Assembly: GCF_009914755.1 (NCBI RefSeq)
Contig: NC_060932.1
Length of the DNA: 64,000 nucleotides
Source: the human T2T-CHM13v2.0 reference genome, Homo sapiens
Strand: one strand, 5' to 3'
Positions within the stretch are counted from its first letter, which is position 1. Every line of letters starts with the position of its first letter. A program made the translations under genes and the position numbers. Below the pieces are notes generated by a model. The model was given only the letters and a program-made list of their open reading frames with translations. It did not search any database and was not told where the DNA came from. Below, one piece after another: positions 9,489 to 59,999 of the stretch.

Positions 9489-11516
9489 CTAAGGACAGGC
9501 CAGGGCGGCGGGAGAGGCGGACCGGTGGCGTGGCTGGATCTGGGCGCGCTGTCGGACCTTCCACATCACCAGCTGCAGGCAGGCGTTTGCGTCCTCGCTG
9601 GAGTTGTGGCCGTCCTGGCTGTCCTGGATGATCTGTGCCAGGTAGTCGGCCGCGAGATTCCTGAGGGAGCGCTTGTAGGGGAAACCCAGGTAGTGCGGGA
9701 AGAGCACGGCCGTGTCCACCACGGTGCTGTGGATGAGCTTCAGGGCCAGCAGGTCGCTCTCCAGGCTGTGCCCGATGAGGATGGTTTGGGCGCTGAAAAA
9801 GCTCAGCAGGATGGCTTGGACTTGGGGCAACGTGATGCTCGTCTTGGCGACGTCGGCCTCGGTGACTCCGGAAAACCTGGTGTTGTAGTCCACGATCTCG
9901 TTGTCGGGCTTGACGAAGGTGTCGTACACCACTCGCATGTCGGCGTCCACCACGGTGACGCGGGTCAGCTCTAGGCCATGCGTGGTGTAGCACATCTCAC
10001 AGTCCAAGGCGTAGATTCCTGGATAAGCGTCTCTGGACAACTCTTTCTTGAAGGTCTCCACGAAGCCATCGAGGCTCTCCTTGCGGCCGTCCCGCACGTG
10101 CTGCTTTGCCACCTGGCAGCCCACAGAGCCAGGAGCAGCTGCACAGCAGGTGTACTGGCTAACCCGGCCTCCAGCCACCTGGCTCGAGCGGACCCGCCCC
10201 CAGTGATAATAACACAACTGGTCGCGTACACAGCGGCCCGAGGAGGACACCAGGTACTCGGTGCCACAACGGCAGCAGACCCTGCAGGAGGAGTCGCCGG
10301 GCCCCTTCCCCTGGCCAGTGAAGAGGACGGCGCCTCCGGGCCGCTCGGGGTGCGGGAAGGGGTAGCCGTTCTCCTTGAGCTGGTCCTGGGTGAGCAGGAA
10401 CTCCTGGAGGCGGCTGTACAGGGCGGCCCTGCTGAGGCCGGGCATGGAGCTGGGGGTCAGGCCCTTCAGTCTCTTGAGGGTGTTCAGGACCACGTTCAGG
10501 TACCTGTTCTTGTTGGGGCTGCAGTCGTAGGCCACCTTCTCCTCGTTCAGCGCCTTCTCCTCGGCCTCCTGCTTGGAGGCGCAGAACTTGAGACACTCTT
10601 CGGTGAACAGTTGGAGATAGCCTCGGCGGAGGACGGTGGGGACTTGGCACCCAGAGCTTCGGAGGATAATGGGTTTCTTCAAACTCAAACTCGGTAAGGA
10701 TGCACGACGGACGATTCGCTTAGAGCTGGTGGTGGCGGTGGTCTTGCATGCCATCCCTGACCTGTTGCGCGTCTTCCCTGGCTGTCTGCCGACCTTGGAG
10801 CCACGGGAGCGTTGGCTGCTGCTGGCCACCCGGGTTCTCTTGGCATCTGTGTAACCTGTGACCAAGCAAGGGCTGGAAGAGTGGGCGATCGTCTTCCTCT
10901 TCCTGGGGGCTGAGATGCGGACTCCCGAGGGCCTCTCTGTCAGCCTTGGGGCGGCTGGCAAGCGGCAGGCCGATCCCCTCTGCGCAGGGAAGTAGCACGA
11001 CTCCGTCACCATCTTGGGCCACGCTGGGGGCACCGCCGGACCCCTGTTCTGGGGCTCCGCCTGGATGTCCACAAATGCTGAGGCCTGCTTGTGCATCTGG
11101 GGCACCCAGAGCCCGAAGCTCTGGGCAGGCTGATGAGAGGGCAGTGGGAATTCTGGAGCCTCGAGGGCCGCCTCCTCGGCCACCTTCTTAGCTTCTGGGT
11201 ATCCAGGTGGGAACCAGCAGGGAGCTGTGGCTCGCAACATCTTGCTGCCTTCGGGAGCACCGGCCGGGCTCTGCTCCGCTCCCAAATGGCGGCTTGCCTC
11301 CGGGGCCGCCTCCTTGGCCACCTTCTTAGCTTCTGGGTATCCAGGGCGGAACCAGCAGGGAGCTGTGGCTCGCAACATCTTGCTGCCTTCGGGAGCACCG
11401 GCCTGGCTCTGCTCCCCTCCCAAATGGCGGCTTGCCTCCAGGGCCGCCTCCTCGGCCACCTTCTTAGCTTCTGGGTATCCAGGGGGGAACCAGCAGGGAG
11501 CTGTGGCTCGCAACAT
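9489..11516 (-). CDS. REXO1L1: REXO1-like 1 / exonuclease GOR, 675 aa, intronless retrogene copy 1 (3 N-terminal repeats)
   Basis: The ORF track starts at an upstream TTG; the first ATG is at 11516 ([10 protein letters not shown]). Cys/His-rich EloA-BP1-like region, then DEDDh motifs ALDCEMC / GHSLESDL / HNSSEDA. CpG island. Family members are usually annotated as REXO1LnP pseudogenes. Confidence 0.9.
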
Positions 11517-11571
11517 CTTGCTGCCTTCGGGAGCACCGGCCTGGCTCTGCTCCTCTCCCAACTGGCGGCTT
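11158..11571 (-). repeat. 138-bp (46-codon) VNTR x3 spanning the 5' UTR and start codon
   Basis: Units at 11158-11295, 11296-11433 and 11434-11571. Peptide [40 protein letters not shown] is repeated. Confidence 0.95.
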
Positions 11572-11850
11572 CAATGAGTGCTGCGGCCGCCACTTGTCGC
11601 CTTTATATAGGCACAGGGCAGACTGGGTGGGACTTCTCCTTGATAGGTTGGTGCTTCAGTCCAATCACACTGAGCCTCATCTTCCACCAGACTCCAGCTT
11701 GGGAATGCCTCAGGGGGTGCGCTAATGGAATCAACTGGAACTCCCGGTTGCTAAACTTGGAGCTAGGTTGCTTTTCCTGAGTTAAGTAACTGTCCCTGCA
11801 GGGCAGTCCTATAATGGCTACTGGAATTGGGCTACCTAGGATTAAATTAA
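11572..11850 (-). promoter_or_regulatory. putative REXO1L core promoter: Inr (~11575), TATA (11602-11609), CCAAT (11661-11665), DUX4-type motif (11723-11733)
   Basis: Minus-strand TATATAAA lies ~32 nt upstream of an Inr-like CTCATTG. ccaatc is on the plus strand. TAATGGAATCA fits TAAYBBAATCA. Confidence 0.65.
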
Positions 11851-12054
11851 GGTTCAGGGAGGTTGGTCAACTTGCTTGGGCCCACACAGCACCCCTTGGA
11901 GCCAGGACTGGGCCAGCAGTCTGCTGCATGCTGGAGGGCGGGATCCCTCTGGGGCTGCCTTTCCCTGCTCTGTGCACTCCGCCGCTGCGGGCAAATTGAG
12001 GACAGGAAGCGGACCGCACCCACTTCTCTCCCAGGACTTGGGCAATGTTCAACA

Positions 12055-12935
12055 CAGGTGGTCTTCCAAAGGTTCATAGAAAATGCACATGGTGAAGAAA
12101 CTATGCATGGATTTCCACTGGTTTGCACTAAAATAAACTTGTCCTAACTTCTGATAACCTTTCTGAACTAGATCTAGTTTGAGGCACTAAGAAGGATGAG
12201 ACATCCACTGAAAAGGACTCCCATCAGAGCAACATGAATTCCACGAAAATTGCAGCAAGAGGAAACATCAAATTTATGGTGAAGCTTGGGTGGAAGATGG
12301 AAGAAATCATTGACGTTTTAAGAAAAGCTTGTAAGGACACTACCCCAAAGAAATGAACTCTTTACGAATGTATAGCTTGTTTCAAGAAGAGGTGAGAAGA
12401 TGTGGAAGATGAATCCTTCAGTGGCTGTGAAAACCACTGTGCCCAGATCAGCTGCAGTTACGACGAGAGCTATCAGTGGAAATTTTAAACAGGAGGGATC
12501 ACGATCCTGACGCATCCCTCTGACAAATTGTAAGCGGCAGTTGGAACATGGCTTCACCAATATGATCTCCAAGGCAAAGCATCATGAAAGCGATGGCTAC
12601 CAAGAGGTGGCAGTGGTCCAGTCAAAGGAAAAGGAGGCCAGTCAGGAGCCCACATCATGGCATCAGTGTTTTGGGACACTCAAGGCATTTTGCTTGTTGA
12701 CTTTCTGAAAGGCCAAACATCTGCTTATTAGGAGAGTGTTCTGAGAAGCTTAGATAAAGCTTTGGTAGAAACATGCTGGGAAAGTCTCACTAGATCCTTG
12801 TTCACCACATCAATGCTCTGCTCATTCCTCTCATCAAACAAGGGCAATTTTGTCAGTTTCAATGGGCAGTCCTTAGGAATTCACCTTACGGGCTGCTTTC
12901 ATTCCTTCTAAATTCTTTTTGTTTCCTAATGATAA
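12055..12935 (+). mobile_element. HSMAR2 relic with degenerate left TIR
   Basis: ggtggtcttccaaaggttcatagaaaatg resembles the Hsmar2 TIR, followed by the transposase remnant as at 1-745. Confidence 0.85.
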
Positions 12936-15381
12936 AAAGTCTCCTTGCCTTGCTTGGAAAGATGAGAGAAAGTCTCCTTGCCTTGTTTGGACAGATGAGA
13001 GATGAGATCCTCCTCTTCTCTCCCAGGACAGAATGGTGAGACTTGAGTTTCCTTTCTCCTCACTCTTCTCCTCCTTGAGGGAGCTGCTGTGCCGGACAGA
13101 CCTGCCCCCGTGTCTAGACACTGGTAGACTCGTTTAAGTTCCTCACAGGCAATCCTCCATGGGGTCAAAGTGGAAGGACTTATTTCTTCAGGGCTCAGTA
13201 GTCCACATCCTGGCGCGCACCTTCACCAGCCCAGGGCGGGGTAGAGGAGGGTGAAAGGGCGTGGCTCAGAGCCCGCTTCTTCCGCTCGGGCGTATCCTGG
13301 GAGGAACCCTTGTCCGGTGAGCATGTCTTCGTCTCTACCAAATTCCCTAGTGGGACATTTCTGGCAGCCCTACTTGTTCAGCAGCTTACGGGGGTCAGGT
13401 GGACCTCTGCTAGTCACCAGCCTGAAGCCCTTTCTCCATTTCAGCTATTTTGGCAGTTGCCTAGGTGACTTTTGAACCTCATTATCCAGAACAGCAAACG
13501 GACGAGGGGTGAGAAGAGTGGCCGTCTGGGTTTGCAGCATAGTGCTGCCTTCTAGGAGTTGTGCAGTCTTCGATTGTGTGAAACTTCACCTGGCTGATTT
13601 GTGGCAATGCCTCCACAAATTCGCTAAATTCAGTAGCTTTTGCCTTCCAAGATTCATTTACACAATGTTGAATGCTTTAAATGAATGAGCATGAAGAGTG
13701 CTGGGCTGGAAAGTGATGAGATGGGTGGTAGGGACTCCTCGGAGTAGAGGAGTAGAGTTTTACTATTATGACTAGGAGGCAAATAAAAAGAAGCTGAACG
13801 TGATCCATAATAAAAGAAGCACACACTCACAGAGCTCCATACCAACTACATTAAAATGGAAATCATGATATTTGGAAATACAACTTAATTGGAAATCATT
13901 AAGTAATCTCATCAACCTTTTTACAGTGGGTGGCAGGGCTATGGAGGGAAAACAGCAATGGTTCTGGCACCTACTTAACTTGATTCCATTAAATTCACCC
14001 AACAGGCCTCCAGAGAACATATTACTGCTTTGATATTACAAAGGGAAAAACAGCTATGGCGTCTCTGAAAAGCACAACGTGCTAGGACTGGAATGACTTT
14101 AAAACCACACATAAATTTCTGAGAGATTTTTGCCATAAGGTACCATCCACCTTACTGTAAACCACATCCTAAAATTGTCTGCAGTGCAAATGGATTATGT
14201 GCATCCAACAGGAAACAGCATAGGTTGAGAAGCTGTTACTTAATAGCTTCATTGTCACCACGAGTGTAAAGTGTGGGGTCTCATCACTTTTGCACCCACG
14301 TTTTGCCTGTTGGTTTCTCCACACTGTCAGGAGCATTTGACCAACTCACTGTGGCTCAGGGTCCCTTACGCAGCCTGTTGGGGAAACCAGTGGGTATTGA
14401 AGACCTGCCTCTGGTGTGCCAGGACGTTGTGCCTGCCGGCCACTCTGACTTGCGATCTTCCGCCTCAGTGTATGGCTTCCTACACCTGGGTAATTAACAT
14501 TGCCAGCATGATAAGGAGGTCCTTTCATCACTATTGCCACTAGTCCTTCCGACTCCTGTGCCCTGTTTCTCCTTTATTGGAACCCAAGAACGAGTAAACA
14601 TAGCATTTTCAAACATCCCGCCCCCTTCACTGGTAACACCAATATTCCACCATCCTAATTCCCTCACAAGCATTCAGTCTCTCCACCCTGAGGTGGTGAA
14701 ATCCCTGCAGGCATTTATAAGTATACCTGGACAGAAGAAATACAAGATACCGTTCTATTAACTCAATATAGTGTTGCTAAGTTCGTACTTTTGCTTGGTT
14801 TATTTTATTTTATAAATAGGTATCACTCGCATGGTTCCAAATGCGATAGGCACAGAGAGTATATATGATGGAATTACATCCTCCTTCCCTGCACTCAGCA
14901 ACCGAGATCTTCCCGCTACGGGCACTCAAAGGTTTCATTGTCTGAAATATCAGCCTAAACGTAGTTTATGTTTAGGAAGCAACAACCGTAAATAGGCCCA
15001 CATCCAAACGGAGTGGATTTAGGTTTCACTTTTTCAAGGAAAAACCATCAAAGAATTTTTCCACATACTTATAAACCATCCCACGTATAGAATCCATTTT
15101 TACTGACACAAATTTAGTACCAATAAACGACTCTTCTTCTCAATTTGTTTTATTTAACAATAAGTCTTGAACGTCATTCCCAGTTAACATTTTGAAGAGT
15201 TTCCTCTCTTTCATTCTGTTTTAGCTGCAAAGTATTCTTCCGTAAGGATGAACGTACTATAATTTATTAGCCAGCCACTTAGTGATGTACAATTAAGCAG
15301 TTTTAAATCTTTGACTCTTGGAAATATTGTTTCTCACACATAAATATTTGTATAAAATAAATTAGTTGAATTAGAATTGTT

Positions 15382-15594
15382 GGAGTTCAAGACCAGCCTG
15401 GCCAACATGGTGAAACCCCATCTCTACTAGAAACACAAAATTAGCCGGACATGCCGGTACATGCCTCTAATCTCAGGTGAGGCAGGAGAATCACTTCAAC
15501 CTGGGAGGCAGAGGTTGTAGTGACTCGAAATCACGCCACTGCACTCCAGCCTGGGCGACGCGAGCGAAACTCTGTCTCAAAAAACCAAAAAAAA
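15382..15594 (+). mobile_element. truncated Alu (AluS-like), unit 2
   Basis: Copy of 3192-3404. Confidence 0.88.
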
Positions 15595-15722
15595 TTAAAC
15601 ATAAAAAGAAAAGCGGTACATATACCCAATAGAACACAATTCAGCCTTAAAAAAGAAAGAAATCATCTCATTGGCAACACGAATGAGCCTAGAGGATGGT
15701 ACACTGAGTGAAAGAAAGCAAA

Positions 15723-16040
15723 GGCCAGGCACGGTGGCTCATGCCTGTAATCCCAGTACTTTGGGAGGCCAAGGCAGGTGGAAGCGTTGAACCCAGGAGT
15801 TGGAGATGAACCTGGGCAACATGGTGAAACCCCATCTCTAAAAGAAACACAAAAATTAGCCAAGTGTGGCGTTGGACGCCTGTAGTCCTAGCTATTCAGG
15901 AGGCTGAAGCGGGAGGAACTCTCGACCCCGGGAGGTGGAGGCCGTGGTGAGTGAGCCGTGTTTGTGTCACTGTACTCCAGCCTGGGTGACAGACTGAGAC
16001 CCTGTCTCAAAAAATAAATAATTACATAATAAAGATTTAA
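15723..16040 (+). mobile_element. Alu (AluJ-like), unit 2
   Basis: Copy of 3533-3850. Confidence 0.88.
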
Positions 16041-17441
16041 AAAGCAAGCACAAAAAGACAAATACTGCATGATCTCACTTATATGTGCAATCTCAAACAA
16101 TGCAACTCATAGCTGTAGAGAGCAGAACGGTGGTTACCCGAGGCAGGGGTCAGGGAGGGACTGGAGAGATGATAGTCTCATGATACAAAATTTCAGAGAG
16201 GAATGGTTCTAGAGATCTATTGAACAGCCTGGCATCTACAGTGTATAAGTATGTATTGTATACTTGAAAATTGCTATAAGAGTAGATTTTAGACATGTCC
16301 TCATCACATTAAAATCAGTATGTGAGGAAACGAGTGTGTTAATTAGCTTGATTTTGTCATTCCACAATGTATACACATATGAAACATCATGTTGTATGCC
16401 ATAAATATATATAATTTTTATTTGTCAAGTTAAAATTAAAATTCATATAAATTATAAAAATAAAATGAAATAACATACACTACAAAAGACTTTTATTTAT
16501 TAAATCCCCACAGAAGGGGTCTAAGTGATAAAGGAAAATAAAATTCCGGGAACGGTAAAATCAATCAGAAATGCCCTACTTCAGTGCTTTCGAAATTTGT
16601 CTGACAGAGTGGAAATCCGGTTTTTCACTAAGTCACTGTTCTGGAACAGTTTGTGTGTGTGTATGTATGTGTGTGAGGGCTCACATACACAAATTGAACT
16701 AATGGAAGTGTAAGCATTCAAATTATCAGTTTAATTTAGTTCTATACATATACACACACACACACTCACACACCGAAAAAATTGATAAAATCAGCCATTC
16801 CAGCAAAACTAGCTACTTAGTGTCTATCTCTCCTTGAAGATTCAAACTAGAAATGAGGATTTAGAGAGGCATGATGGTTCGTTCTCTCTTGGAGCCCAGT
16901 TCGAAGTTGACTGACTGATTCAGTCATTGTAATTGGTTGGTCTTGGGGAAGAATCCACTTTGACTCTTGGGAAGTCAGCTAGGTCAGCGGACAGAGCAGG
17001 GGCTCTGGAGCCAGACTGCCTGCACCCGACTTCTAGCTATGATACCTTGGATAAACTACTTATCACCTGGGCTTCAGGTTCCTCATCTGTAAAATGGGGA
17101 TAAGAATGCTATCTCTCTCACAACTGTTAGGAGGACTGACTGGGTTAATACGTGCAAAGTACCAAGTACATAAGAAACCAACAGCCAGTGCTCATTACAA
17201 TCATTATTATTTTGGGCAAGTTAAGCCGCATGGTTTCTTTAGGTATAAAATTAGGCTTTATTTACCTACCTGTTGGGTTGTTCCAAGGATTAATCACATA
17301 GTGTTCATGAATTCCCTTTATAAACTATTATAGAAAAGAAATATAGTTAACATTAATTGAACACCTACTATGTGCGATCGTTTTAAGGCTTGCCATGTGC
17401 TGCTTCATTCAGTCCGCACCATGACATTAGGATCACACTTT

Positions 17442-21113
<3,672 letters not shown>

Positions 21114-21677: not shown

Positions 21678-23567
21678 CTAAGGACAGGCCAGGGCGGCGG
21701 GAGAGGCGGACCGGTGGCGTGGCTGGATCTGGGCGCGCTGTCGGACCTTCCACATCACCAGCTGCAGGCAGGCGTTTGCGTCCTCGCTGGAGTTGTGGCC
21801 GTCCTGGCTGTCCTGGATGATCTGTGCCAGGTAGTCGGCCGCGAGATTCCTGAGGGAGCGCTTGTAGGGGAAACCCAGGTAGTGCGGGAAGAGCACGGCC
21901 GTGTCCACCACGGTGCTGTGGATGAGCTTCAGGGCCAGCAGGTCGCTCTCCAGGCTGTGCCCGATGAGGATGGTTTGGGCGCTGAAAAAGCTCAGCAGGA
22001 TGGCTTGGACTTGGGGCAACGTGATGCTCGTCTTGGCGACGTCGGCCTCGGTGACTCCGGAAAACCTGGTGTTGTAGTCCACGATCTCGTTGTCGGGCTT
22101 GACGAAGGTGTCGTACACCACTCGCATGTCGGCGTCCACCACGGTGACGCGGGTCAGCTCTAGGCCATGCGTGGTGTAGCACATCTCACAGTCCAAGGCG
22201 TAGATTCCTGGATAAGCGTCTCTGGACAACTCTTTCTTGAAGGTCTCCACGAAGCCATCGAGGCTCTCCTTGCGGCCGTCCCGCACGTGCTGCTTTGCCA
22301 CCTGGCAGCCCACAGAGCCAGGAGCAGCTGCACAGCAGGTGTACTGGCTAACCCGGCCTCCAGCCACCTGGCTCGAGCGGACCCGCCCCCAGTGATAATA
22401 ACACAACTGGTCGCGTACACAGCGGCCCGAGGAGGACACCAGGTACTCGGTGCCACAACGGCAGCAGACCCTGCAGGAGGAGTCGCCGGGCCCCTTCCCC
22501 TGGCCAGTGAAGAGGACGGCGCCTCCGGGCCGCTCGGGGTGCGGGAAGGGGTAGCCGTTCTCCTTGAGCTGGTCCTGGGTGAGCAGGAACTCCTGGAGGC
22601 GGCTGTACAGGGCGGCCCTGCTGAGGCCGGGCATGGAGCTGGGGGTCAGGCCCTTCAGTCTCTTGAGGGTGTTCAGGACCACGTTCAGGTACCTGTTCTT
22701 GTTGGGGCTGCAGTCGTAGGCCACCTTCTCCTCGTTCAGCGCCTTCTCCTCGGCCTCCTGCTTGGAGGCGCAGAACTTGAGACACTCTTCGGTGAACAGT
22801 TGGAGATAGCCTCGGCGGAGGACGGTGGGGACTTGGCACCCAGAGCTTCGGAGGATAATGGGTTTCTTCAAACTCAAACTCGGTAAGGATGCACGACGGA
22901 CGATTCGCTTAGAGCTGGTGGTGGCGGTGGTCTTGCATGCCATCCCTGACCTGTTGCGCGTCTTCCCTGGCTGTCTGCCGACCTTGGAGCCACGGGAGCG
23001 TTGGCTGCTGCTGGCCACCCGGGTTCTCTTGGCATCTGTGTAACCTGTGACCAAGCAAGGGCTGGAAGAGTGGGCGATCGTCTTCCTCTTCCTGGGGGCT
23101 GAGATGCGGACTCCCGAGGGCCTCTCTGTCAGCCTTGGGGCGGCTGGCAAGCGGCAGGCCGATCCCCTCTGCGCAGGGAAGTAGCACGACTCCGTCACCA
23201 TCTTGGGCCACGCTGGGGGCACCGCCGGACCCCTGTTCTGGGGCTCCGCCTGGATGTCCACAAATGCTGAGGCCTGCTTGTGCATCTGGGGCACCCAGAG
23301 CCCGAAGCTCTGGGCAGGCTGATGAGAGGGCAGTGGGAATTCTGGAGCCTCGAGGGCCGCCTCCTCGGCCACCTTCTTAGCTTCTGGGTATCCAGGTGGG
23401 AACCAGCAGGGAGCTGTGGCTCGCAACATCTTGCTGCCTTCGGGAGCACCGGCCGGGCTCTGCTCCGCTCCCAAATGGCGGCTTGCCTCCGGGGCCGCCT
23501 CCTTGGCCACCTTCTTAGCTTCTGGGTATCCAGGGCGGAACCAGCAGGGAGCTGTGGCTCGCAACAT
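21678..23567 (-). CDS. REXO1L1: REXO1-like/GOR copy 2, 629 aa (2 N-terminal repeats)
   Basis: Intact ORF identical to copy 1 except for loss of one 138-bp repeat. DEDDh motifs intact. Confidence 0.88.
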
Positions 23568-23622
23568 CTTGCTGCCTTCGGGAGCACCGGCCTGGCTCTG
23601 CTCCTCTCCCAACTGGCGGCTT
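23347..23622 (-). repeat. 138-bp VNTR x2
   Basis: Repeats WFRPG..KEAAPEA and [13 protein letters not shown]. Confidence 0.9.
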
Positions 23623-33729: not shown

Positions 33730-35619
33730 CTAAGGACAGGCCAGGGCGGCGGGAGAGGCGGACCGGTGGCGTGGCTGGATCTGGGCGCGCTGTCGGACCT
33801 TCCACATCACCAGCTGCAGGCAGGCGTTTGCGTCCTCGCTGGAGTTGTGGCCGTCCTGGCTGTCCTGGATGATCTGTGCCAGGTAGTCGGCCGCGAGATT
33901 CCTGAGGGAGCGCTTGTAGGGGAAACCCAGGTAGTGCGGGAAGAGCACGGCCGTGTCCACCACGGTGCTGTGGATGAGCTTCAGGGCCAGCAGGTCGCTC
34001 TCCAGGCTGTGCCCGATGAGGATGGTTTGGGCGCTGAAAAAGCTCAGCAGGATGGCTTGGACTTGGGGCAACGTGATGCTCGTCTTGGCGACGTCGGCCT
34101 CGGTGACTCCGGAAAACCTGGTGTTGTAGTCCACGATCTCGTTGTCGGGCTTGACGAAGGTGTCGTACACCACTCGCATGTCGGCGTCCACCACGGTGAC
34201 GCGGGTCAGCTCTAGGCCATGCGTGGTGTAGCACATCTCACAGTCCAAGGCGTAGATTCCTGGATAAGCGTCTCTGGACAACTCTTTCTTGAAGGTCTCC
34301 ACGAAGCCATCGAGGCTCTCCTTGCGGCCGTCCCGCACGTGCTGCTTTGCCACCTGGCAGCCCACAGAGCCAGGAGCAGCTGCACAGCAGGTGTACTGGC
34401 TAACCCGGCCTCCAGCCACCTGGCTCGAGCGGACCCGCCCCCAGTGATAATAACACAACTGGTCGCGTACACAGCGGCCCGAGGAGGACACCAGGTACTC
34501 GGTGCCACAACGGCAGCAGACCCTGCAGGAGGAGTCGCCGGGCCCCTTCCCCTGGCCAGTGAAGAGGACGGCGCCTCCGGGCCGCTCGGGGTGCGGGAAG
34601 GGGTAGCCGTTCTCCTTGAGCTGGTCCTGGGTGAGCAGGAACTCCTGGAGGCGGCTGTACAGGGCGGCCCTGCTGAGGCCGGGCATGGAGCTGGGGGTCA
34701 GGCCCTTCAGTCTCTTGAGGGTGTTCAGGACCACGTTCAGGTACCTGTTCTTGTTGGGGCTGCAGTCGTAGGCCACCTTCTCCTCGTTCAGCGCCTTCTC
34801 CTCGGCCTCCTGCTTGGAGGCGCAGAACTTGAGACACTCTTCGGTGAACAGTTGGAGATAGCCTCGGCGGAGGACGGTGGGGACTTGGCACCCAGAGCTT
34901 CGGAGGATAATGGGTTTCTTCAAACTCAAACTCGGTAAGGATGGACGACGGACGATTCGCTTAGAGCTGGTGGTGGCGGTGGTCTTGCATGCCATCCCTG
35001 ACCTGTTGCGCGTCTTCCCTGGCTGTCTGCCGACCTTGGAGCCACGGGAGCGTTGGCTGCTGCTGGCCACCCGGGTTCTCTTGGCATCTGTGTAACCTGT
35101 GACCAAGCAAGGGCTGGAAGAGTGGGCGATCGCCTTCCTCTTCCTGGGGGCTGAGATGCGGACTCCCGAGGGCCTCTCTGTCAGCCTTGGGGCGGCTGGC
35201 AAGCGGCAGGCCGATCCCCTCTGCGCAGGGAAGTAGCACGACTCCGTCACCATCTTGGGCCACGCTGGGGGCACCGCCGGACCCCTGTTCTGGGGCTCCG
35301 CCTGGATGTCCACAAATGCTGAGGCCTGCTTGTGCATCTGGGGCACCCAGAGCCCGAAGCTCTGGGCAGGCTGATGAGAGGGCAGTGGGAATTCTGGAGC
35401 CTCGAGGGCCGCCTCCTCGGCCACCTTCTTAGCTTCTGGGTATCCAGGGCGGAACCAGCAGGGAGCTGTGGCTCGCAACATCTTGCTGCCTTCGGGAGCA
35501 CCGGCCGGGCTCTGCTCCGCTCCCAAATGGCGGCTTGCCTCCGGGGCCGCCTCCTTGGCCACCTTCTTAGCTTCTGGGTATCCAGGGGGGAACCAGCAGG
35601 GAGCTGTGGCTCGCAACAT
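33730..35619 (-). CDS. REXO1L1: REXO1-like/GOR copy 3, 629 aa (2 hybrid N-terminal repeats)
   Basis: Intact ORF with substitutions RKRKA and RRPSLP. DEDDh motifs intact. Confidence 0.88.
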
Positions 35620-45782: not shown

Positions 45783-47810
45783 CTAAGGACAGGCCAGGGC
45801 GGCGGGAGAGGCGGACCGGTGGCGTGGCTGGATCTGGGCGCGCTGTCGGACCTTCCACATCACCAGCTGCAGGCAGGCGTTTGCGTCCTCGCTGGAGTTG
45901 TGGCCGTCCTGGCTGTCCTGGATGATCTGTGCCAGGTAGTCGGCCGCGAGATTCCTGAGGGAGCGCTTGTAGGGGAAACCCAGGTAGTGCGGGAAGAGCA
46001 CGGCCGTGTCCACCACGGTGCTGTGGATGAGCTTCAGGGCCAGCAGGTCGCTCTCCAGGCTGTGCCCGATGAGGATGGTTTGGGCGCTGAAAAAGCTCAG
46101 CAGGATGGCTTGGACTTGGGGCAACGTGATGCTCGTCTTGGCGACGTCGGCCTCGGTGACTCCGGAAAACCTGGTGTTGTAGTCCACGATCTCGTTGTCG
46201 GGCTTGACGAAGGTGTCGTACACCACTCGCATGTCGGCGTCCACCACGGTGACGCGGGTCAGCTCTAGGCCATGCGTGGTGTAGCACATCTCACAGTCCA
46301 AGGCGTAGATTCCTGGATAAGCGTCTCTGGACAACTCTTTCTTGAAGGTCTCCACGAAGCCATCGAGGCTCTCCTTGCGGCCGTCCCGCACGTGCTGCTT
46401 TGCCACCTGGCAGCCCACAGAGCCAGGAGCAGCTGCACAGCAGGTGTACTGGCTAACCCGGCCTCCAGCCACCTGGCTCGAGCGGACCCGCCCCCAGTGA
46501 TAATAACACAACTGGTCGCGTACACAGCGGCCCGAGGAGGACACCAGGTACTCGGTGCCACAACGGCAGCAGACCCTGCAGGAGGAGTCGCCGGGCCCCT
46601 TCCCCTGGCCAGTGAAGAGGACGGCGCCTCCGGGCCGCTCGGGGTGCGGGAAGGGGTAGCCGTTCTCCTTGAGCTGGTCCTGGGTGAGCAGGAACTCCTG
46701 GAGGCGGCTGTACAGGGCGGCCCTGCTGAGGCCGGGCATGGAGCTGGGGGTCAGGCCCTTCAGTCTCTTGAGGGTGTTCAGGACCACGTTCAGGTACCTG
46801 TTCTTGTTGGGGCTGCAGTCGTAGGCCACCTTCTCCTCGTTCAGCGCCTTCTCCTCGGCCTCCTGCTTGGAGGCGCAGAACTTGAGACACTCTTCGGTGA
46901 ACAGTTGGAGATAGCCTCGGCGGACGACGGTGGGGACTTGGCACCCAGAGCTTCGGAGGATAATGGGTTTCTTCAAACTCAAACTCGGTAAGGATGCACG
47001 ACGGACGATTCGCTTAGAGCTGGTGGTGGCGGTGGTCTTGCATGCCATCCCTGACCTGTTGCGCGTCTTCCCTGGCTGTCTGCCGACCTTGGAGCCACGG
47101 GAGCGTTGGCTGCTGCTGGCCACCCGGGTTCTCTTGGCATCTGTGTAACCTGTGACCAAGCAAGGGCTGGAAGAGTGGGCGATCGTCTTCCTCTTCCTGG
47201 GGGCTGAGATGCGGACTCCCGAGGGCCTCTCTGTCAGCCTTGGGGCGGCTGGCAAGCGGCAGGCCGATCCCCTCTGCGCAGGGAAGTAGCACGACTCCGT
47301 CACCATCTTGGGCCACGCTGGGGGCACCGCCGGACCCCTGTTCTGGGGCTCCGCCTGGATGTCCACAAATGCTGAGGCCTGCTTGTGCATCTGGGGCACC
47401 CAGAGCCCGAAGCTCTGGGCAGGCTGATGAGAGGGCAGTGGGAATTCTGGAGCCTCGAGGGCCGCCTCCTCGGCCACCTTCTTAGCTTCTGGGTATCCAG
47501 GTGGGAACCAGCAGGGAGCTGTGGCTCGCAACATCTTGCTGCCTTCGGGAGCACCGGCCGGGCTCTGCTCCGCTCCCAAATGGCGGCTTGCCTCCGGGGC
47601 CGCCTCCTTGGCCACCTTCTTAGCTTCTGGGTATCCAGGGCGGAACCAGCAGGGAGCTGTGGCTCGCAACATCTTGCTGCCTTCGGGAGCACCGGCCTGG
47701 CTCTGCTCCCCTCCCAAATGGCGGCTTGCCTCCAGGGCCGCCTCCTCGGCCACCTTCTTAGCTTCTGGGTATCCAGGGGGGAACCAGCAGGGAGCTGTGG
47801 CTCGCAACAT
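45783..47810 (-). CDS. REXO1L1: REXO1-like/GOR copy 4, 675 aa
   Basis: Intact ORF with the PTVVRR variant. DEDDh motifs intact. Confidence 0.9.
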
Positions 47811-47865
47811 CTTGCTGCCTTCGGGAGCACCGGCCTGGCTCTGCTCCTCTCCCAACTGGCGGCTT
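47452..47865 (-). repeat. 138-bp VNTR x3
   Basis: Same arrangement as unit 1. Confidence 0.92.
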
Positions 47866-48144: not shown

Positions 48145-48348
48145 GGTTCAGGGAGGTTGGTCAACTTGCTTGGGCCCACACAGCACCCCTTGGAGCCAGG
48201 ACTGGGCCAGCAGTCTGCTGCATGCTGGAGGGCGGGATCCCTCTGGGGCTGCCTTTCCCTGCTCTGTGCACTCCGCCGCTGCGGGCAAATTGAGGACAGG
48301 AAGCGGACCGCACCCACTTCTCTCCCAGGACTTGGGCAATGTTCAACA

Positions 48349-49229: not shown

Positions 49230-51675
49230 AAAGTCTCCTTGCCTTGCTTGGAAAGATGAGAGAAAGTCTCCTTGCCTTGTTTGGACAGATGAGAGATGAG
49301 ATCCTCCTCTTCTCTCCCAGGACAGAATGGTGAGACTTGAGTTTCCTTTCTCCTCACTCTTCTCCTCCTTGAGGGAGCTGCTGTGCCGGACAGACCTGCC
49401 CCCGTGTCTAGACACTGGTAGACTCGTTTAAGTTCCTCACAGGCAATCCTCCATGGGGTCAAAGTGGAAGGACTTATTTCTTCAGGGCTCAGTAGTCCAC
49501 ATCCTGGCGCGCACCTTCACCAGCCCAGGGCGGGGTAGAGGAGGGTGAAAGGGCGTGGCTCAGAGCCCGCTTCTTCCGCTCGGGCGTATCCTGGGAGGAA
49601 CCCTTGTCCGGTGAGCATGTCTTCGTCTCTACCAAATTCCCTAGTGGGACATTTCTGGCAGCCCTACTTGTTCAGCAGCTTACGGGGGTCAGGTGGACCT
49701 CTGCTAGTCACCAGCCTGAAGCCCTTTCTCCATTTCAGCTATTTTGGCAGTTGCCTAGGTGACTTTTGAACCTCATTATCCAGAACAGCAAACGGACGAG
49801 GGGTGAGAAGAGTGGCCGTCTGGGTTTGCAGCATAGTGCTGCCTTCTAGGAGTTGTGCAGTCTTCGATTGTGTGAAACTTCACCTGGCTGATTTGTGGCA
49901 ATGCCTCCACAAATTCGCTAAATTCAGTAGCTTTTGCCTTCCAAGATTCATTTACACAATGTTGAATGCTTTAAATGAATGAGCATGAAGAGTGCTGGGC
50001 TGGAAAGTGATGAGATGGGTGGTAGGGACTCCTCGGAGTAGAGGAGTAGAGTTTTACTATTATGACTAGGAGGCAAATAAAAAGAAGCTGAACGTGATCC
50101 ATAATAAAAGAAGCACACACTCACAGAGCTCCATACCAACTACATTAAAATGGAAATCATGATATTTGGAAATACAACTTAATTGGAAATCATTAAGTAA
50201 TCTCATCAACCTTTTTACAGTGGGTGGCAGGGCTATGGAGGGAAAACAGCAATGGTTCTGGCACCTACTTAACTTGATTCCATTAAATTCACCCAACAGG
50301 CCTCCAGAGAACATATTACTGCTTTGATATTACAAAGGGAAAAACAGCTATGGCGTCTCTGAAAAGCACAACGTGCTAGGACTGGAATGACTTTAAAACC
50401 ACACATAAATTTCTGAGAGATTTTTGCCATAAGGTACCATCCACCTTACTGTAAACCACATCCTAAAATTGTCTGCAGTGCAAATGGATTATGTGCATCC
50501 AACAGGAAACAGCATAGGTTGAGAAGCTGTTACTTAATAGCTTCATTGTCACCACGAGTGTAAAGTGTGGGGTCTCATCACTTTTGCACCCACGTTTTGC
50601 CTGTTGGTTTCTCCACACTGTCAGGAGCATTTGACCAACTCACTGTGGCTCAGGGTCCCTTACGCAGCCTGTTGGGGAAACCAGTGGGTATTGAAGACCT
50701 GCCTCTGGTGTGCCAGGACGTTGTGCCTGCCGGCCACTCTGACTTGCGATCTTCCGCCTCAGTGTATGGCTTCCTACACCTGGGTAATTAACATTGCCAG
50801 CATGATAAGGAGGTCCTTTCATCACTATTGCCACTAGTCCTTCCGACTCCTGTGCCCTGTTTCTCCTTTATTGGAACCCAAGAACGAGTAAACATAGCAT
50901 TTTCAAACATCCCGCCCCCTTCCCTGGTAACACCAATATTCCACCATCCTAATTCCCTCACAAGCATTCAGTCTCTCCACCCTGAGGTGGTGAAATCCCT
51001 GCAGGCATTTATAAGTATACCTGGACAGAAGAAATACAAGATACCGTTCTATTAACTCAATATAGTGTTGCTAAGTTCGTACTTGTGCTTGGTTTATTTT
51101 ATTTTATAAATACGTATCACTCGCATGGTTCCAAATGCGGTAGGCACAGAGAGTATATATGATGGAATTACATCCTCCTTCCCTGCACTCAGCAACCGAG
51201 ATCTTCCCGCTACGGGCACTCAAAGGTTTCATTGTCTGAAATATCAGCCTAAACGTAGTTTATGTTTAGGAAGCAACAACCGTAAATGGGCCCACATCCA
51301 AACGGAGTGGATTTAGGTTTCACTTTTTCAAGGAAAAACCATCAAAGAATTTTTCCACATACTTATAAACCATCCCACGTATAGAATCCATTTTTACTGA
51401 CACAAATTTAGTACCAATAAACGACTCTTCTTCTCAATTTGTTTTATTTAACAATAAGTCTTGAACGTCATTCCCAGTTAACATTTTGAAGAGTTTCCTC
51501 TCTTTCGTTCTGTTTTAGCTGCAAAGTATTCTTCCGTAAGGATGAACGTACTATAATTTATTAGCCAGCCACTTAGTGATGTACAATTAAGCAGTTTTAA
51601 ATCTTTGACTCTTGAAAATATTGTTTCTCACACATAAATATTTCTATAAAATAAATTAGTTGAATTAGAATTGTT

Positions 51676-51888
51676 GGAGTTCAAGACCAGCCTGGCCAAC
51701 ATGGTGAAACCCCATCTCTACTAGAAGCACAAAATTAGCCGGACATGCCGGTACATGCCTCTAATCTCAGGTGAGGCAGGAGAATCACTTCAACCTGGGA
51801 GGCAGAGGTTGTAGTGACTCGAAATCACGCCACTGCACTCCAGCCTGGGCGACGCGAGCGAAACTCTGTCTCAAAAAACCAAAAAAAA
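51676..51888 (+). mobile_element. truncated Alu (AluS-like), unit 5
   Basis: Copy of 3192-3404. Confidence 0.88.
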
Positions 51889-52016
51889 TTAAACATAAAA
51901 AGAAAAGCGGTACATATACCCAATAGAACACAATTCAGCCTTAAAAAAGAAAGAAATCATCTCATTGGCAACACGAATGAGCCTAGAGGATGGTACACTG
52001 AGTGAAAGAAAGCAAA

Positions 52017-52334
52017 GGCCAGGCACGGTGGCTCATGCCTGTAATCCCAGTACTTTGGGAGGCCAAGGCAGGTGGAAGCGTTGAGCCCAGGAGTTGGAGA
52101 TGAACCTGGGCAACATGGTGAAACCCCATCTCTAAAAGAAACACAAAAATTAGCCAAGTGTGGCGTTGGACGCCTGTAGTCCTAGCTATTCAGGAGGCTG
52201 AAGCGGGAGGAACTCTCGACCCCGGGAGGTGGAGGCCGTGGTGAGTGAGCCATGTTTGTGTCACTGTACTCCAGCCTGGGTGACAGACTGAGACCCTGTC
52301 TCAAAAAATAAATAATTACATAATAAAGATTTAA
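52017..52334 (+). mobile_element. Alu (AluJ-like), unit 5
   Basis: Copy of 3533-3850. Confidence 0.88.
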
Positions 52335-53735
52335 AAAGCAAGCACAAAAAGACAAATACTGCATGATCTCACTTATATGTGCAATCTCAAACAATGCAAC
52401 TCATAGCTGTAGAGAGCAGAACGGTGGTTACCCGAGGCAGGGGTCAGGGAGGGACTGGAGAGATGATAGTCTCATGATACAAAATTTCAGAGAGGAATGG
52501 TTCTAGAGATCTATTGAACAGCCTGGCATCTACAGTGTATAAGTATGTATTGTATACTTGAAAATTGCTATAAGAGTAGATTTTAGACATGTCCTCATCA
52601 CATTAAAATCAGTATGTGAGGAAACGAGTGTGTTAATTAGCTTGATTTTGTCATTCCACAATGTATACACGTATGAAACATCATGTTGTATGCCATAAAT
52701 ATATATAATTTTTATTTGTCAAGTTAAAATTAAAATTCATATAAATTATAAAAATAAAATGAAATAACATACACTACAAAAGACTTTTATTTATTAAATC
52801 CCCACAGAAGGGGTCTAAGTGATAAAGGAAAATAAAATTCCGGGAACGGTAAAATCAATCAGAAATGCCCTACTTCAGTGCTTTCGAAATTTGTCTGACA
52901 GAGTGGAAATCCGGTTTTTCACTAAGTCACTGTTCTGGAACAGTTTGTGTGTGTGTATGTATGTGTGTGAGGGCTCACATACACAAATTGAACTAATGGA
53001 AGTGTAAGCATTCAAATTATCAGTTTAATTTAGTTCTATACATATACACACACACACACTCACACACCGAAAAAATTGATAAAATCAGCCATTCCAGCAA
53101 AACTAGCTACTTAGTGTCTATCTCTCCTTGAAGATTCCAACTAGAAATGAGGATTTAGAGAGGCATGATGGTTCGTTCTCTCTTGGAGCCCAGTTCGAAG
53201 TTGACTGACTGATTCAGTCATTGTAATTGGTTGGTCTTGGGGAAGAATCCACTTTGACTCTTGGGAAGTCAGCTAGGTCAGCGGACAGAGCAGGGGCTCT
53301 GGAGCCAGACTGCCTGCACCCGACTTCTAGCTATGATACCTTGGATAAACTACTTATCACCTGGGCTTCAGGTTCCTCATCTGTAAAATGGGGATAAGAA
53401 TGCTATCTCTCTCACAACTGTTAGGAGGACTGACTGGGTTAATACGTGCAAAGTACCAAGTACATAAGAAACCAACAGCCAGTGCTCATTACAATCATTA
53501 TTATTTTGGGCAAGTTAAGCCGCATGGTTTCTTTAGGTATAAAATTAGGCTTTATTTACCTACCTGTTGGGTTGTTCCAAGGATTAATCACATAGTGTTC
53601 ATGAATTCCCTTTATAAACTATTATAGAAAAGAAATATAGTTAACATTAATTGAACACCTACTATGTGCGATCGTTTTAAGGCTTGCCATGTGCTGCTTC
53701 ATTCAGTCCGCACCATGACATTAGGATCACACTTT

Positions 53736-57407
<3,672 letters not shown>

Positions 57408-57971
57408 GATCACACTTTAAAGACCAAAAGGTAGAAGCGCAAAGACGTTATCTGTCCAATATTACAAACCTAGTAAGTGGTGGAATTTGGCCTTGAACCC
57501 AGATCTGTAACTCCAGAGCCGAAGTGCTTCACCCACCTCCCTGTGGTGCCTCTACAGAAAAAGAGGTAAGCAGGCATTCCGAAAGCTGGTGGGCCGGGGG
57601 GCTGGCCTTGTACTCAGAAGCCATGGAAGTCCCACGTGGGGTGGCTAGTGGTGTAAGGACAGAGGTCTCGGATGGGCAGAGGGATGTGGACAGGCGCGAG
57701 GGCGCGCGGCAGGGACTCGGGGGACTGGGAGTGGCGGCTCGGGGCTGCGGGAGGCGATTGGTGGAAGGACAGAGGTCTGGGAGGGGCAGAGGGATGTGGA
57801 CAGGCCCGAGGGGCCGCGGCAGGGATTCCGGGGGACCGGGAGTGGGGGGTTGGGGTTACTCTTGGCTTTTTGCCCTCTCCTGCCGCCGGCTGCTCCAGTT
57901 TCTTTCGCTTTGCGGCGAGGTGGGCAGGGTGAGCTCTCGGGACTGATGGCGGTTTTGGAAGAGGCCTGGGG

Positions 57972-59999
57972 CTAAGGACAGGCCAGGGCGGCGGGAGAGG
58001 CGGACCGGTGGCGTGGCTGGATCTGGGCGCGCTGTCGGACCTTCCACATCACCAGCTGCAGGCAGGCGTTTGCGTCCTCGCTGGAGTTGTGGCCGTCCTG
58101 GCTGTCCTGGATGATCTGTGCCAGGTAGTCGGCCGCGAGATTCCTGAGGGAGCGCTTGTAGGGGAAACCCAGGTAGTGCGGGAAGAGCACGGCCGTGTCC
58201 ACCACGGTGCTGTGGATGAGCTTCAGGGCCAGCAGGTCGCTCTCCAGGCTGTGCCCGATGAGGATGGTTTGGGCGCTGAAAAAGCTCAGCAGGATGGCTT
58301 GGACTTGGGGCAACGTGATGCTCGTCTTGGCGACGTCGGCCTCGGTGACTCCGGAAAACCTGGTGTTGTAGTCCACGATCTCGTTGTCGGGCTTGACGAA
58401 GGTGTCGTACACCACTCGCATGTCGGCGTCCACCACGGTGACGCGGGTCAGCTCTAGGCCATGCGTGGTGTAGCACATCTCACAGTCCAAGGCGTAGATT
58501 CCTGGATAAGCGTCTCTGGACAACTCTTTCTTGAAGGTCTCCACGAAGCCATCGAGGCTCTCCTTGCGGCCGTCCCGCACGTGCTGCTTTGCCACCTGGC
58601 AGCCCACAGAGCCAGGAGCAGCTGCACAGCAGGTGTACTGGCTAACCCGGCCTCCAGCCACCTGGCTCGAGCGGACCCGCCCCCAGTGATAATAACACAA
58701 CTGGTCGCGTACACAGCGGCCCGAGGAGGACACCAGGTACTCGGTGCCACAACGGCAGCAGACCCTGCAGGAGGAGTCGCCGGGCCCCTTCCCCTGGCCA
58801 GTGAAGAGGACGGCGCCTCCGGGCCGCTCGGGGTGCGGGAAGGGGTAGCCGTTCTCCTTGAGCTGGTCCTGGGTGAGCAGGAACTCCTGGAGGCGGCTGT
58901 ACAGGGCGGCCCTGCTGAGGCCGGGCATGGAGCTGGGGGTCAGGCCCTTCAGTCTCTTGAGGGTGTTCAGGACCACGTTCAGGTACCTGTTCTTGTTGGG
59001 GCTGCAGTCGTAGGCCACCTTCTCCTCGTTCAGCGCCTTCTCCTCGGCCTCCTGCTTGGAGGCGCAGAACTTGAGACACTCTTCGGTGAACAGTTGGAGA
59101 TAGCCTCGGCGGACGACGGTGGGGACTTGGCACCCAGAGCTTCGGAGGATAATGGGTTTCTTCAAACTCAAACTCGGTAAGGATGCACGACGGACGATTC
59201 GCTTAGAGCTGGTGGTGGCGGTGGTCTTGCATGCCATCCCTGACCTGTTGCGCGTCTTCCCTGGCTGTCTGCCGACCTTGGAGCCACGGGAGCGTTGGCT
59301 GCTGCTGGCCACCCGGGTTCTCTTGGCATCTGTGTAACCTGTGACCAAGCAAGGGCTGGAAGAGTGGGCGATCGTCTTCCTCTTCCTGGGGGCTGAGATG
59401 CGGACTCCCGAGGGCCTCTCTGTCAGCCTTGGGGCGGCTGGCAAGCGGCAGGCCGATCCCCTCTGCACAGGGAAGTAGCACGACTCCGTCACCATCTTGG
59501 GCCACGCTGGGGGCACCGCCGGACCCCTGTTCTGGGGCTCCGCCTGGATGTCCACAAATGCTGAGGCCTGCTTGTGCATCTGGGGCACCCAGAGCCCGAA
59601 GCTCTGGGCAGGCTGATGAGAGGGCAGTGGGAATTCTGGAGCCTCGAGGGCCGCCTCCTCGGCCACCTTCTTAGCTTCTGGGTATCCAGGTGGGAACCAG
59701 CAGGGAGCTGTGGCTCGCAACATCTTGCTGCCTTCGGGAGCACCGGCCGGGCTCTGCTCCGCTCCCAAATGGCGGCTTGCCTCCGGGGCCGCCTCCTTGG
59801 CCACCTTCTTAGCTTCTGGGTATCCAGGGCGGAACCAGCAGGGAGCTGTGGCTCGCAACATCTTGCTGCCTTCGGGAGCACCGGCCTGGCTCTGCTCCCC
59901 TCCCAAATGGCGGCTTGCCTCCAGGGCCGCCTCCTCGGCCACCTTCTTAGCTTCTGGGTATCCAGGGGGGAACCAGCAGGGAGCTGTGGCTCGCAACAT
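57972..59999 (-). CDS. REXO1L1: REXO1-like/GOR copy 5, 675 aa
   Basis: Intact ORF with FPVQRG and PTVVRR variants. DEDDh motifs intact. Confidence 0.9.

What the first reader, a model, noticed from the sequence alone, without database searches (positions are those of the whole stretch)
9489..59999. All five 'pseudogene' copies keep an open ORF and the full DEDDh catalytic set; the C-terminal half is invariant
Seen: five of five ORFs are uninterrupted, and the only length change is an in-frame 138-bp unit, while 1-bp indels and a new stop do occur in flanking DNA. ExoI D-x-E (ALDCEM), ExoII D (GHSLESD), ExoIII H-x4-D (HNSSED) and the Cys/His cluster (CCRC..C..CYYH..CC..C..H) are all present. 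Outside the VNTR, the amino-acid differences (T>A and A>P in copy 3, L>V in copies 4 and 5, A>V in copy 5) all lie upstream of RRGYLQLF, and everything downstream is identical. Established: REXO1 (Elongin A-binding protein 1) is a DEDDh 3'-5' exonuclease. Inference: this is a dosage-variable, potentially active nuclease family rather than dead copies. Recent homogenisation alone could also give high identity.
Basis: partly seen in the sequence, partly recalled or inferred. Interest (0 to 1): 0.7.

Follow-up and report, generated by a model that had tools for sequence, protein, structure and literature searches.

The report
Conserved nuclease gene labelled a pseudogene
A human gene repeated 72 times on chromosome 8 and usually called a pseudogene is unbroken in every copy, and its protein has been conserved across monkeys and apes, so it likely still makes a working RNA-trimming enzyme, although neither the protein nor its activity has been convincingly shown.

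Summary
Observation confirmed and extended. The window lies in the known 8q21.2 REXO1L1/GOR array. All 72 of 72 copies in this genome have an open frame with D505/E507/D588/H637/D642. GOR is a retrocopy of REXO1 whose start codon and promoter-like motifs come from a retained REXO1 intron. Long-term selection on the protein is shown: GOR-branch changes hit 1 of 76 family-conserved columns against 49 of 204 others (p=8e-7), while a dead chr7 retrocopy shows no avoidance. Full-length orthologues exist from apes to New World monkeys. Against present function: the gene is methylated, internal copies lack the poly(A) signal kept by one edge copy, the only protein evidence is one peptide-spectrum match, and activity is untested. 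Locus and domain layout are in print; the selection evidence was not found. Most likely a live KIX-CHORD-DEDDh exoribonuclease retrogene (0.6).

The parts
9489..11516 (-). GOR/REXO1L1 ORF copy 1, 675 aa (three 138-bp units)
21678..23567 (-). ORF copy 2, 629 aa (two units)
33730..35619 (-). ORF copy 3, 629 aa (LOC124906711)
   Evidence: supplied gene table
45783..47810 (-). ORF copy 4, 675 aa (LOC124902048)
   Evidence: supplied gene table
57972..59999 (-). ORF copy 5, 675 aa (3' part annotated REXO1L4P pseudogene)
   Evidence: supplied gene table
11158..11571 (-). 138-bp VNTR; each unit carries 5' leader plus an in-frame ATG, so the third ATG (11240) gives the 583-aa form whose start matches the other primates
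10461..10646 (-). KIX-like three-helix bundle (about residues 291-352; R297 and Y339 kept), inside Pfam EloA-BP1
   Evidence: domain definition in PMC12129344
10092..10289 (-). CHORD-type Cys/His domain (about 410-475; C414, C417, C435, C457, C458, C467, H473 invariant in the family alignment)
9552..10022 (-). DEDDh exonuclease domain: D505 (10002-10004), E507 (9996-9998), D588 (9753-9755), H637 (9606-9608), D642 (9591-9593)
9261..10630 (.). Run with no variable site among the five copies; the RefSeq enhancer in copy 4 (45802-46587) maps to 9508-10293 inside it
11517..12328 (-). 5' flank homologous to a retained REXO1 intron (61-76% identity); holds a TATA-like box (11602-11609), a CCAAT box (11661-11665) and a DUX4-like 11-mer (11723-11733) absent from the parent stretch
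12974..13430 (-). Decayed remnants of two upstream REXO1 exons, spliced together: 5' end of the retrocopy
9086..9092 (-). Junction where internal units lack a segment of about 170 nt with AATAAA and an A-rich run that the leftmost array copy (L032) keeps
8500..8505 (-). First AATAAA downstream of the stop in internal units (+983), likely inside the L1 fragment
7410..8027 (-). L1 reverse-transcriptase fragment ORF (205 aa), open in 4 of 5 units; a passenger and internal control

Best explanation
REXO1L1/GOR is an intact retrogene of REXO1, unbroken in all 72 copies of this genome and conserved as a protein across simians, that likely still encodes an active 3'-5' exoribonuclease made in a narrow, probably germline, window. 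Shown: (1) origin from a REXO1 transcript with the 3' exons spliced, one 38-aa exon skipped and one intron retained, that intron supplying the ATG and CCAAT/TATA-like motifs; (2) KIX-CHORD-DEDDh layout with all five catalytic residues and the zinc ligands; (3) long-term purifying selection on the CHORD and DEDDh domains; (4) extra homogenisation of the 3' CDS among copies, which also covers synonymous sites. Inferred: gene conversion spreads the 3' CDS among units while selection removes damaging variants; the enzyme trims or degrades RNA 3' ends by two-metal catalysis as ISG20 and SDN1 do; the fast-evolving KIX and N-terminus set targeting, perhaps to RNA polymerase II complexes as proposed for REXO1 and Rex3; somatic methylation keeps the array mostly silent.
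For: 72 of 72 copies open, all ending in TAG, motifs intact. GOR-branch amino-acid changes: 1 of 76 family-conserved columns vs 49 of 204 others, p=8e-7; dead chr7 copy 28 of 62 vs 71 of 170. GOR vs parent: 2 indels, none frameshifting; chr7 copy 36 indels, 34 of frameshift length. dN/dS vs REXO1 0.24 in CHORD and in DEDDh at dS 0.55-0.66. Human-marmoset divergence 66 of 186 in the N-terminus vs 18 of 182 in DEDDh, p=3e-9, although CpG density is higher in DEDDh. Full-length orthologue proteins in chimpanzee, gorilla, gibbon, an unnamed record (P0005), marmoset, capuchin, owl monkey and squirrel monkey. Simulated neutral survival of this ORF is 0.8% at 3% divergence and under 0.1% at 5% (assumed indel and CpG rates). 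Within the array, residues 478-660 have 4 synonymous and 2 missense sites, p=0.03. Model pLDDT 95.5, best matches SDN1 and ISG20. Weak expression hints: RT-PCR with DNase treatment in cell lines (PMC4422118); REXO1L2P classed as having a testis-specific transcript (PMC4737856 supplement); one GOR-specific peptide, 1 PSM (PMC7320927).
Against: No nuclease assay seen, and the single peptide fails the HUPO two-peptide rule. The 3-kb gene region is methylated in CHM13 (PMC8099727). The five window copies and 31 of 32 longer loci lack the proximal AATAAA segment. Present-day selection in humans is only suggested: array-wide pN/pS 0.47-0.50, p=0.04-0.06; piN about equals piS; zero loss-of-function where 2.9-4.9 are expected, P=0.053-0.007 under assumed rates. 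Polarised GOR-branch omega is 0.55 for CHORD+DEDDh (vs chr7 copy p=0.06) and 0.82 over all folded parts, far above the parent's 0.12-0.13, so constraint is relaxed. The titi monkey record departs at 13 of 76 conserved columns and the gorilla record has a 9-aa gap in DEDDh; these may be real damage or model errors. Protein searches see only intact copies. The testis record shows 0 for testis mRNA and low specificity in one of its data sets.
Confidence: 0.6

Rival explanations
1. The gene was functional through most of primate history but is now silent or dying in humans; all copies look intact only because they share a recent ancestor through conversion and unequal crossing-over.
For: piS only 0.084% and mostly singletons; methylation; loss of the proximal poly(A) signal in internal units; almost no protein evidence; the non-functional L1 fragment ORF is also open in 4 of 5 units.
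Against: 25 core variants where 72 are expected at flank diversity; no loss-of-function in 72 copies (P=0.007-0.053); 4 synonymous vs 2 missense in the nuclease domain; CCAAT motif kept in 32 of 32 and TATA-like motif in 31 of 32 loci.
Confidence: 0.2
2. Master-copy model: only the leftmost copy (L032, 581 aa), which keeps its own poly(A) signal, makes stable mRNA; the other 71 are a reservoir held identical by gene conversion, so copy number would not set enzyme dosage.
For: L032 is the only one of 32 longer loci with AATAAA within 700 nt of the stop (+493); its 3' flank is about 87% identical to the array while its 3' CDS matches at 1139 of 1140 nt.
Against: Selection on one copy would not easily keep 71 others clean; internal units have an AATAAA at +983 that could serve; the chimpanzee protein's tail is of the internal type. 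Only 32 of 72 copies plus the window were checked for this segment.
Confidence: 0.12
3. The 3' CDS is held constant for a DNA-level role (exonic enhancer, methylation or chromatin domain of the array), with the open frame a by-product.
For: The RefSeq enhancer maps onto the invariant run; synonymous sites and the near 3' flank are depleted too.
Against: Cannot explain the avoidance of amino-acid-conserved columns with dS near 0.5 over the long run. It may still add to the recent homogeneity.
Confidence: 0.04
4. The protein is made but acts as a non-catalytic scaffold or competitor of REXO1 through KIX and CHORD.
For: KIX has diverged quickly (23 missense vs 3 synonymous changes on the GOR branch); GOR lacks the N-terminal half of REXO1.
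Against: All five catalytic residues are kept in every simian record, and DEDDh is the slowest or near-slowest part.
Confidence: 0.04

Closest known systems
REXO1L1/GOR at the 8q21.2 VNTR (PMC8099727, PMC2588610, PMC4063668; passages read)
   Same: This is that locus: 12.2-kb unit, about 71-72 units in CHM13, 108-266 diploid copies in HapMap samples, about 860 in one gorilla.
   Different: PMC8099727 and the 2025 neocentromere preprint call it a pseudogene; the passages I read do not report that all copies are intact or test selection.
REXO1 (EloA-BP1) / yeast Rex3 clade (PMC12129344; passages and section 8 read)
   Same: KIX, CHORD and C-terminal DEDDh; that paper already names GOR beside REXO1 as a human DEDDh enzyme with these domains.
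   Different: GOR is single-exon, lacks about 530 N-terminal REXO1 residues and a 38-aa exon, has an intron-derived N-terminus, is tandemly amplified and evolves faster (branch omega 0.55-0.82 vs 0.12-0.13).
ELOA3 tandem retrogene array (PMC10664989; abstract start and one passage read)
   Same: Primate retrogenes in a macrosatellite, annotated as pseudogenes yet with open frames; ELOA3 was shown to function. Both arrays are largest in gorilla and chimpanzee.
   Different: ELOA3 has functional data and GOR has none; that paper's main text never mentions REXO1, so no link between them is shown.
Drosophila Prage (as described in PMC12129344)
   Same: A second, short Rex3-family CHORD-DEDDh protein beside the canonical gene; needed for turnover of maternal mRNA.
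   Different: Prage lacks KIX and is not shown to be an orthologue; an embryonic role for GOR has no support here.
SDN1 (PDB 5z9x) and ISG20 (PDB 1wlj)
   Same: Closest solved structures by sequence (E=6e-28, 7e-16) and by fold (rmsd 2.2-2.3 A over 159-171 columns).
   Different: They match the DEDDh domain only.

Membership tests
DEDDh exonuclease | ExoI D-x-E, ExoII D, ExoIII H-x4-D | tested here: met
   D505, E507, D588, H637, D642 in 72 of 72 copies; aligned to ISG20 and SDN1
DEDDh exonuclease | RNase H-like DEDD fold | tested here: met
   Model pLDDT 95.5; Foldseek E=9e-14 to SDN1, 4e-13 to ISG20. Pfam gave no RNase_T hit at E<=0.001.
DEDDh exonuclease | Metal-dependent 3'-5' hydrolysis | not testable with these tools
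   No assay seen in the papers read
Rex3/REXO1 clade | KIX domain with conserved Arg and Tyr | tested here: met
   Three-helix bundle, pLDDT 75-88 in an otherwise poor model; top rows Gal11 KIX Z 8.8 (rmsd 3.2, 74 aligned) and RECQL5 Z 8.5, modest for a helical bundle; R297 and Y339 present; Pfam EloA-BP1 E=2e-38
Rex3/REXO1 clade | Single CHORD domain next to DEDDh | tested here: met
   Six Cys and one His invariant in 131- and 85-row alignments; fold match to a solved CHORD not tested separately
Rex3/REXO1 clade | DCEM in ExoI followed by Y/F, DL in ExoII, IQ before ExoIII | tested here: met
   All present in the sequence; criteria from PMC12129344
Rex3/REXO1 clade | Binding to Elongin A / RNA polymerase II complexes | not tested
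   No complex job was run; the binding region of REXO1 was not established from the papers read
Retrogene (processed copy) | Loss of parental introns | tested here: met
   12 REXO1 exon segments lie contiguous in the ORF; one upstream intron spliced and the next retained
Retrogene (processed copy) | Poly(A) remnant and target-site duplication | tested here: inconclusive
   A-rich run after AATAAA in the edge copy only; no target-site duplication was sought
Functional retrogene | Purifying selection on the protein | tested here: met
   (long-term); only suggestive within the human array
Functional retrogene | Transcribed and translated | tested here: inconclusive
   RT-PCR report, weak testis class, 1 PSM
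Pseudogene | Disabling mutation or neutral evolution | tested here: not met
   0 of 72 copies with a stop or frameshift; non-neutral pattern. Loss of expression was not excluded.
DUX4-activated cleavage-stage gene | DUX4 site and induction by DUX4 or at 8-cell stage | tested here: inconclusive
   Two matches per unit to the loose consensus (recalled), none to the strict one; no REXO1L hit in supplements of five papers, of which the two searched for REXO1 lacked that too, so they are poorly informative; no relevant title among 8 papers

The most novel reading that the evidence does not exclude
GOR is an old mammalian retrogene (one origin shared with hare and mouse lemur) that took its promoter and start codon from a retained REXO1 intron, kept its nuclease core, rewired its KIX domain, and was amplified to hundreds of copies in apes as a germline or early-embryo RNA-clearance nuclease of the Prage kind whose dose varies several-fold between people.
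Probability: 0.2. Interest if true: 0.8.

Novelty: new member of a known kind. Interest (0 to 1): 0.55.

Why it matters
[quoted passage not shown] If its 100-270 copies per person encode a selected enzyme, it joins ELOA3 as a mis-annotated multi-copy protein gene, and its copy-number range, the reported deletion case (PMC4422118) and its absence from unique-mapping RNA and variant analyses become testable questions. The retained-intron origin is also a clear example of how a retrocopy can acquire a promoter and start codon. The locus, the 675-aa putative protein and its domains are already known, which limits the surprise.

Tried and rejected
(1) C-terminal invariance as proof of protein selection: rejected; synonymous sites and near flank are depleted too, the edge copy has no synonymous difference in the 3' CDS where about 7 are expected, and common flank variants show little linkage even at 100-200 bp, as expected under frequent exchange. 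(2) DUX4 or 8-cell target: loose motif only, no support found. (3) Co-evolution with ELOA3 as binding partner: no mention of REXO1 in the ELOA3 paper; no complex prediction run. (4) Positive selection on KIX: omega 2.3 rests on 3 synonymous changes; not claimed. (5) The human stop as a disabling premature stop relative to the 690-aa chimpanzee protein: not supported; it lies after the nuclease domain, the parent's 3' UTR has TAG at the same place, and gorilla and five New World monkey records end at the same residue; unnamed P0129 reads through like chimpanzee, so the deep ancestral state is open. (6) First structure job with 27 close rows was poor outside KIX (pLDDT 42); replaced by an 85-row job. 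(7) The antisense 239-aa and 169-215-aa ORFs on the + strand were taken as GC-rich shadow frames and not pursued. (8) One origin for all GOR-type proteins: first tree 17% bootstrap, second tree SH-aLRT 92, not starred, long branches: neither shown nor rejected. (9) Four papers were not held, among them Tyson 2014 and the early GOR cloning work, so these may hold prior statements; earlier scan findings were not open. Flanks longer than about 170 bp were seen for 37 of 72 copies only.
Full report
Observation. Over one full unit the five copies differ at 102 of 12,009 columns: 2.4 per kb in the CDS outside the VNTR, 9.8 per kb in the rest. The run 9261-10630 has none (P=0.0002 by uniform placement).

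Identity. The window is part of the 8q21.2 VNTR, whose 12.192-kb unit is described as carrying 'the REXO1L1 (GOR) pseudogene', methylated over the 3-kb gene region (PMC8099727, passages). Copy number is 108-266 per diploid genome in HapMap samples, about 860 in one gorilla and about 22 in macaque (PMC4063668, passages and supplement rows).

Whole array. A search of the own genome gave 83 matches: 72 full copies at chr8:86.08-86.95 Mb, 8 exon matches of REXO1 on chr19 and 3 weak matches on chr7, 9 and 15 (counts are lower bounds). I read the CDS of all 72. All 72 are open and end in TAG: 62 of 675 aa, 7 of 629, and one each of 673, 583 and 581; no catalytic or Cys/His motif tested is changed. 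Among the 70 copies of equal core length (the two edge copies, with a 6-bp in-frame deletion, were left out) there are 10 synonymous and 15 missense sites. Residues 297-675 hold 7 missense sites, so 'invariant' is true of this window only. pN/pS is 0.47-0.50 overall (p=0.04-0.06) and 0.16 for residues 478-660 (p=0.03). No loss-of-function allele was seen where 2.9-4.9 would be expected (P=0.053-0.007; indel rate assumed). This is suggestive, not strong.

Origin. Twelve REXO1 exon segments lie contiguous in the ORF. The first 60 or so codons match the intron in front of a REXO1 exon, where human REXO1 itself has an in-frame ATG and an open frame. Homology continues upstream through that intron (12328-11624) to two earlier exons already spliced together (13430-12974). 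A 38-aa exon is skipped. The source was therefore a partly spliced transcript, and the retained intron gave the start codon and the 5' flank. The CCAAT box aligns with one in the parent intron; the TATA-like box and the DUX4-like 11-mer are GOR-specific. That this flank works as a promoter is inferred. The same intron-derived N-terminal motif and skipped exon occur in mouse lemur, hare and three unnamed proteins. With dS of 0.47 to the parent this suggests an origin older than simians, but the trees neither show nor reject one origin.

Selection on the protein. This is the main result. From 123 family members (7 GOR-type or GOR-like rows and the query left out) 76 columns are at least 85% conserved. 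Changes on the GOR branch fall on 1 of 76 such columns and 49 of 204 others (p=8e-7). The dead chr7 retrocopy changed 28 of 62 and 71 of 170. GOR differs from the parent by 2 in-frame indels; the chr7 copy has 36 indels, 34 of frameshift length. Pairwise dN/dS to REXO1 is 0.24 in CHORD and in the linker-plus-DEDDh bin 479-660. Named orthologues from chimpanzee to New World monkeys are full length, with 34-36% N-terminal and 9-11% DEDDh divergence from human in four New World monkeys. Against: three-way polarised omega on the GOR branch is 0.55 for CHORD+DEDDh (p=0.06 against the chr7 copy) and 0.82 for all folded parts, against 0.12-0.13 for the parent, so constraint is looser. The titi record is damaged or mis-modelled (13 of 76 columns) and the gorilla record has a 9-aa gap. 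Protein databases list only intact copies, and no orthologous DNA was available.

Why the 3' half is so uniform. piS (0.084%) about equals piN (0.069%), against 0.57-0.61% in distal flanks of 35 copies, 30 of which were picked for protein identity. The leftmost copy differs from the window by 2.65% upstream, 1.5% in the 5' CDS, 0.09% in the 3' CDS and about 13-17% from roughly 150 nt after the stop. Protein selection does not hold synonymous sites, so gene conversion over the 3' CDS is inferred, with selection filtering what spreads. A RefSeq enhancer overlaps the same stretch.

An unexpected asymmetry. The leftmost copy keeps a segment of about 170 nt with AATAAA at +493 and an A-rich run. 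It is missing from 31 of 32 longer loci and from the window's units, whose first AATAAA is at +983, likely in the L1 fragment. Internal copies either use the later signal or are poorly processed; this is the basis of the master-copy rival.

Structure. With 85 rows, residues 363-661 fold at pLDDT 95.5, pTM 0.91; best matches are SDN1, ISG20, Pan2 and ISG20L2 (by sequence). The bundle at about 291-352 matches Gal11 KIX (Z 8.8) and RECQL5 (Z 8.5), modest scores. PMC12129344 (passages and section 8) already places GOR with REXO1 as KIX-CHORD-DEDDh, proposes KIX-mediated recruitment to RNA polymerase II, and notes that fly Prage clears maternal mRNA. PMC4422118 (part 1 and passages) calls it a DEDDh exonuclease without an assay in the parts read.

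Expression. Thin. RT-PCR in cell lines and induction by X-rays; REXO1L2P in class C6a, 'testis-specific transcript', with 0 in the testis mRNA column, from a file cut when stored (PMC4737856); one peptide with one PSM (PMC7320927), which is absent from the REXO1 part compared. DUX4 and embryo supplements gave nothing (PMC6349399, PMC8901440, PMC9287684, PMC8990217, PMC5818005: supplement searches only); full gene tables seem not to be held, so these blanks are weak. Supplements of the bioRxiv preprint (passages) were not seen.

Novelty. Locus, putative protein and domains are known, and RefSeq already predicts two window copies as coding. Searches for REXO1L1 (37 of 40 listed), 'exonuclease GOR' (21), REXO1L since 2015 (25, 40 of 49 listed), 'GOR gene' with hepatitis C and chimpanzee (31, none), REXO1 with retrogene (74) and REXO1L with purifying selection (82, none) showed no paper whose title or abstract start reports array-wide intactness, selection, the retained-intron origin or the poly(A) asymmetry. 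Subscription papers are not covered. The kind, a working retrogene array labelled pseudogene, has a precedent in ELOA3 (PMC10664989).

Verdict. Real and more than chance. Long-term protein constraint is shown; present-day activity is likely but untested (0.6). Interest 0.55.

Noticed in passing
L032 (G000:C8:86080000-86084500), +340 to +510 after the stop; window junction about 9086-9092: The leftmost array copy keeps a poly(A)-signal segment that internal units have lost, and its 3' flank is only about 87% identical to theirs while its 3' CDS is 99.9% identical.
   Followed up: yes
L031 8485-8305 (chr19, REXO1 intron): Human REXO1 has an in-frame intronic ATG and about 60 open codons before an exon: a candidate short isoform from an internal promoter.
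   Followed up: partly
window 11723-11733 (+) and 13981-13991 (-), and the same places in each unit: Two identical 11-mers per unit fit the loose DUX4 consensus (recalled); 0.65 expected per window, but the copies are not independent, and no literature support was found.
   Followed up: partly
window 9168-9488 (-): The frame after the human TAG stays open for 106 codons and matches the chimpanzee C-terminal extension, which holds the stretch I recall as the hepatitis-C-associated GOR epitope.
   Followed up: partly
L069 (G000:C7:55503300-55505800): A dead REXO1 retrocopy made from the canonical transcript (includes the 38-aa exon), with 34 frameshift-length indels; used as neutral control. Weaker matches on chr9 and chr15 were not examined.
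   Followed up: partly
window 7410-8027 and equivalents: An L1 reverse-transcriptase fragment in the same orientation as the gene, open in 4 of 5 units, with a stop in copy 4.
   Followed up: partly
P0123, P0124, P0126, P0129, P0131, P0135, P0136: Several unnamed short REXO1-like proteins with long branches and mostly intact catalytic motifs; P0123 keeps a version of the 38-aa exon and groups apart, which suggests more than one REXO1 retrocopy lineage in mammals.
   Followed up: partly
whole array, coordinates: Orientation flips four times (five domains), with shortened spacings of 6.8 and 8.4 kb, in line with PMC8099727; two-unit VNTR copies cluster toward the right end, which includes this window.
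   Followed up: no
PMC4063668: REXO1L1 and TCEB3C/ELOA3 arrays are both largest in gorilla and chimpanzee; their parent proteins REXO1 and Elongin A bind each other, but no link between the retrogenes was found.
   Followed up: partly
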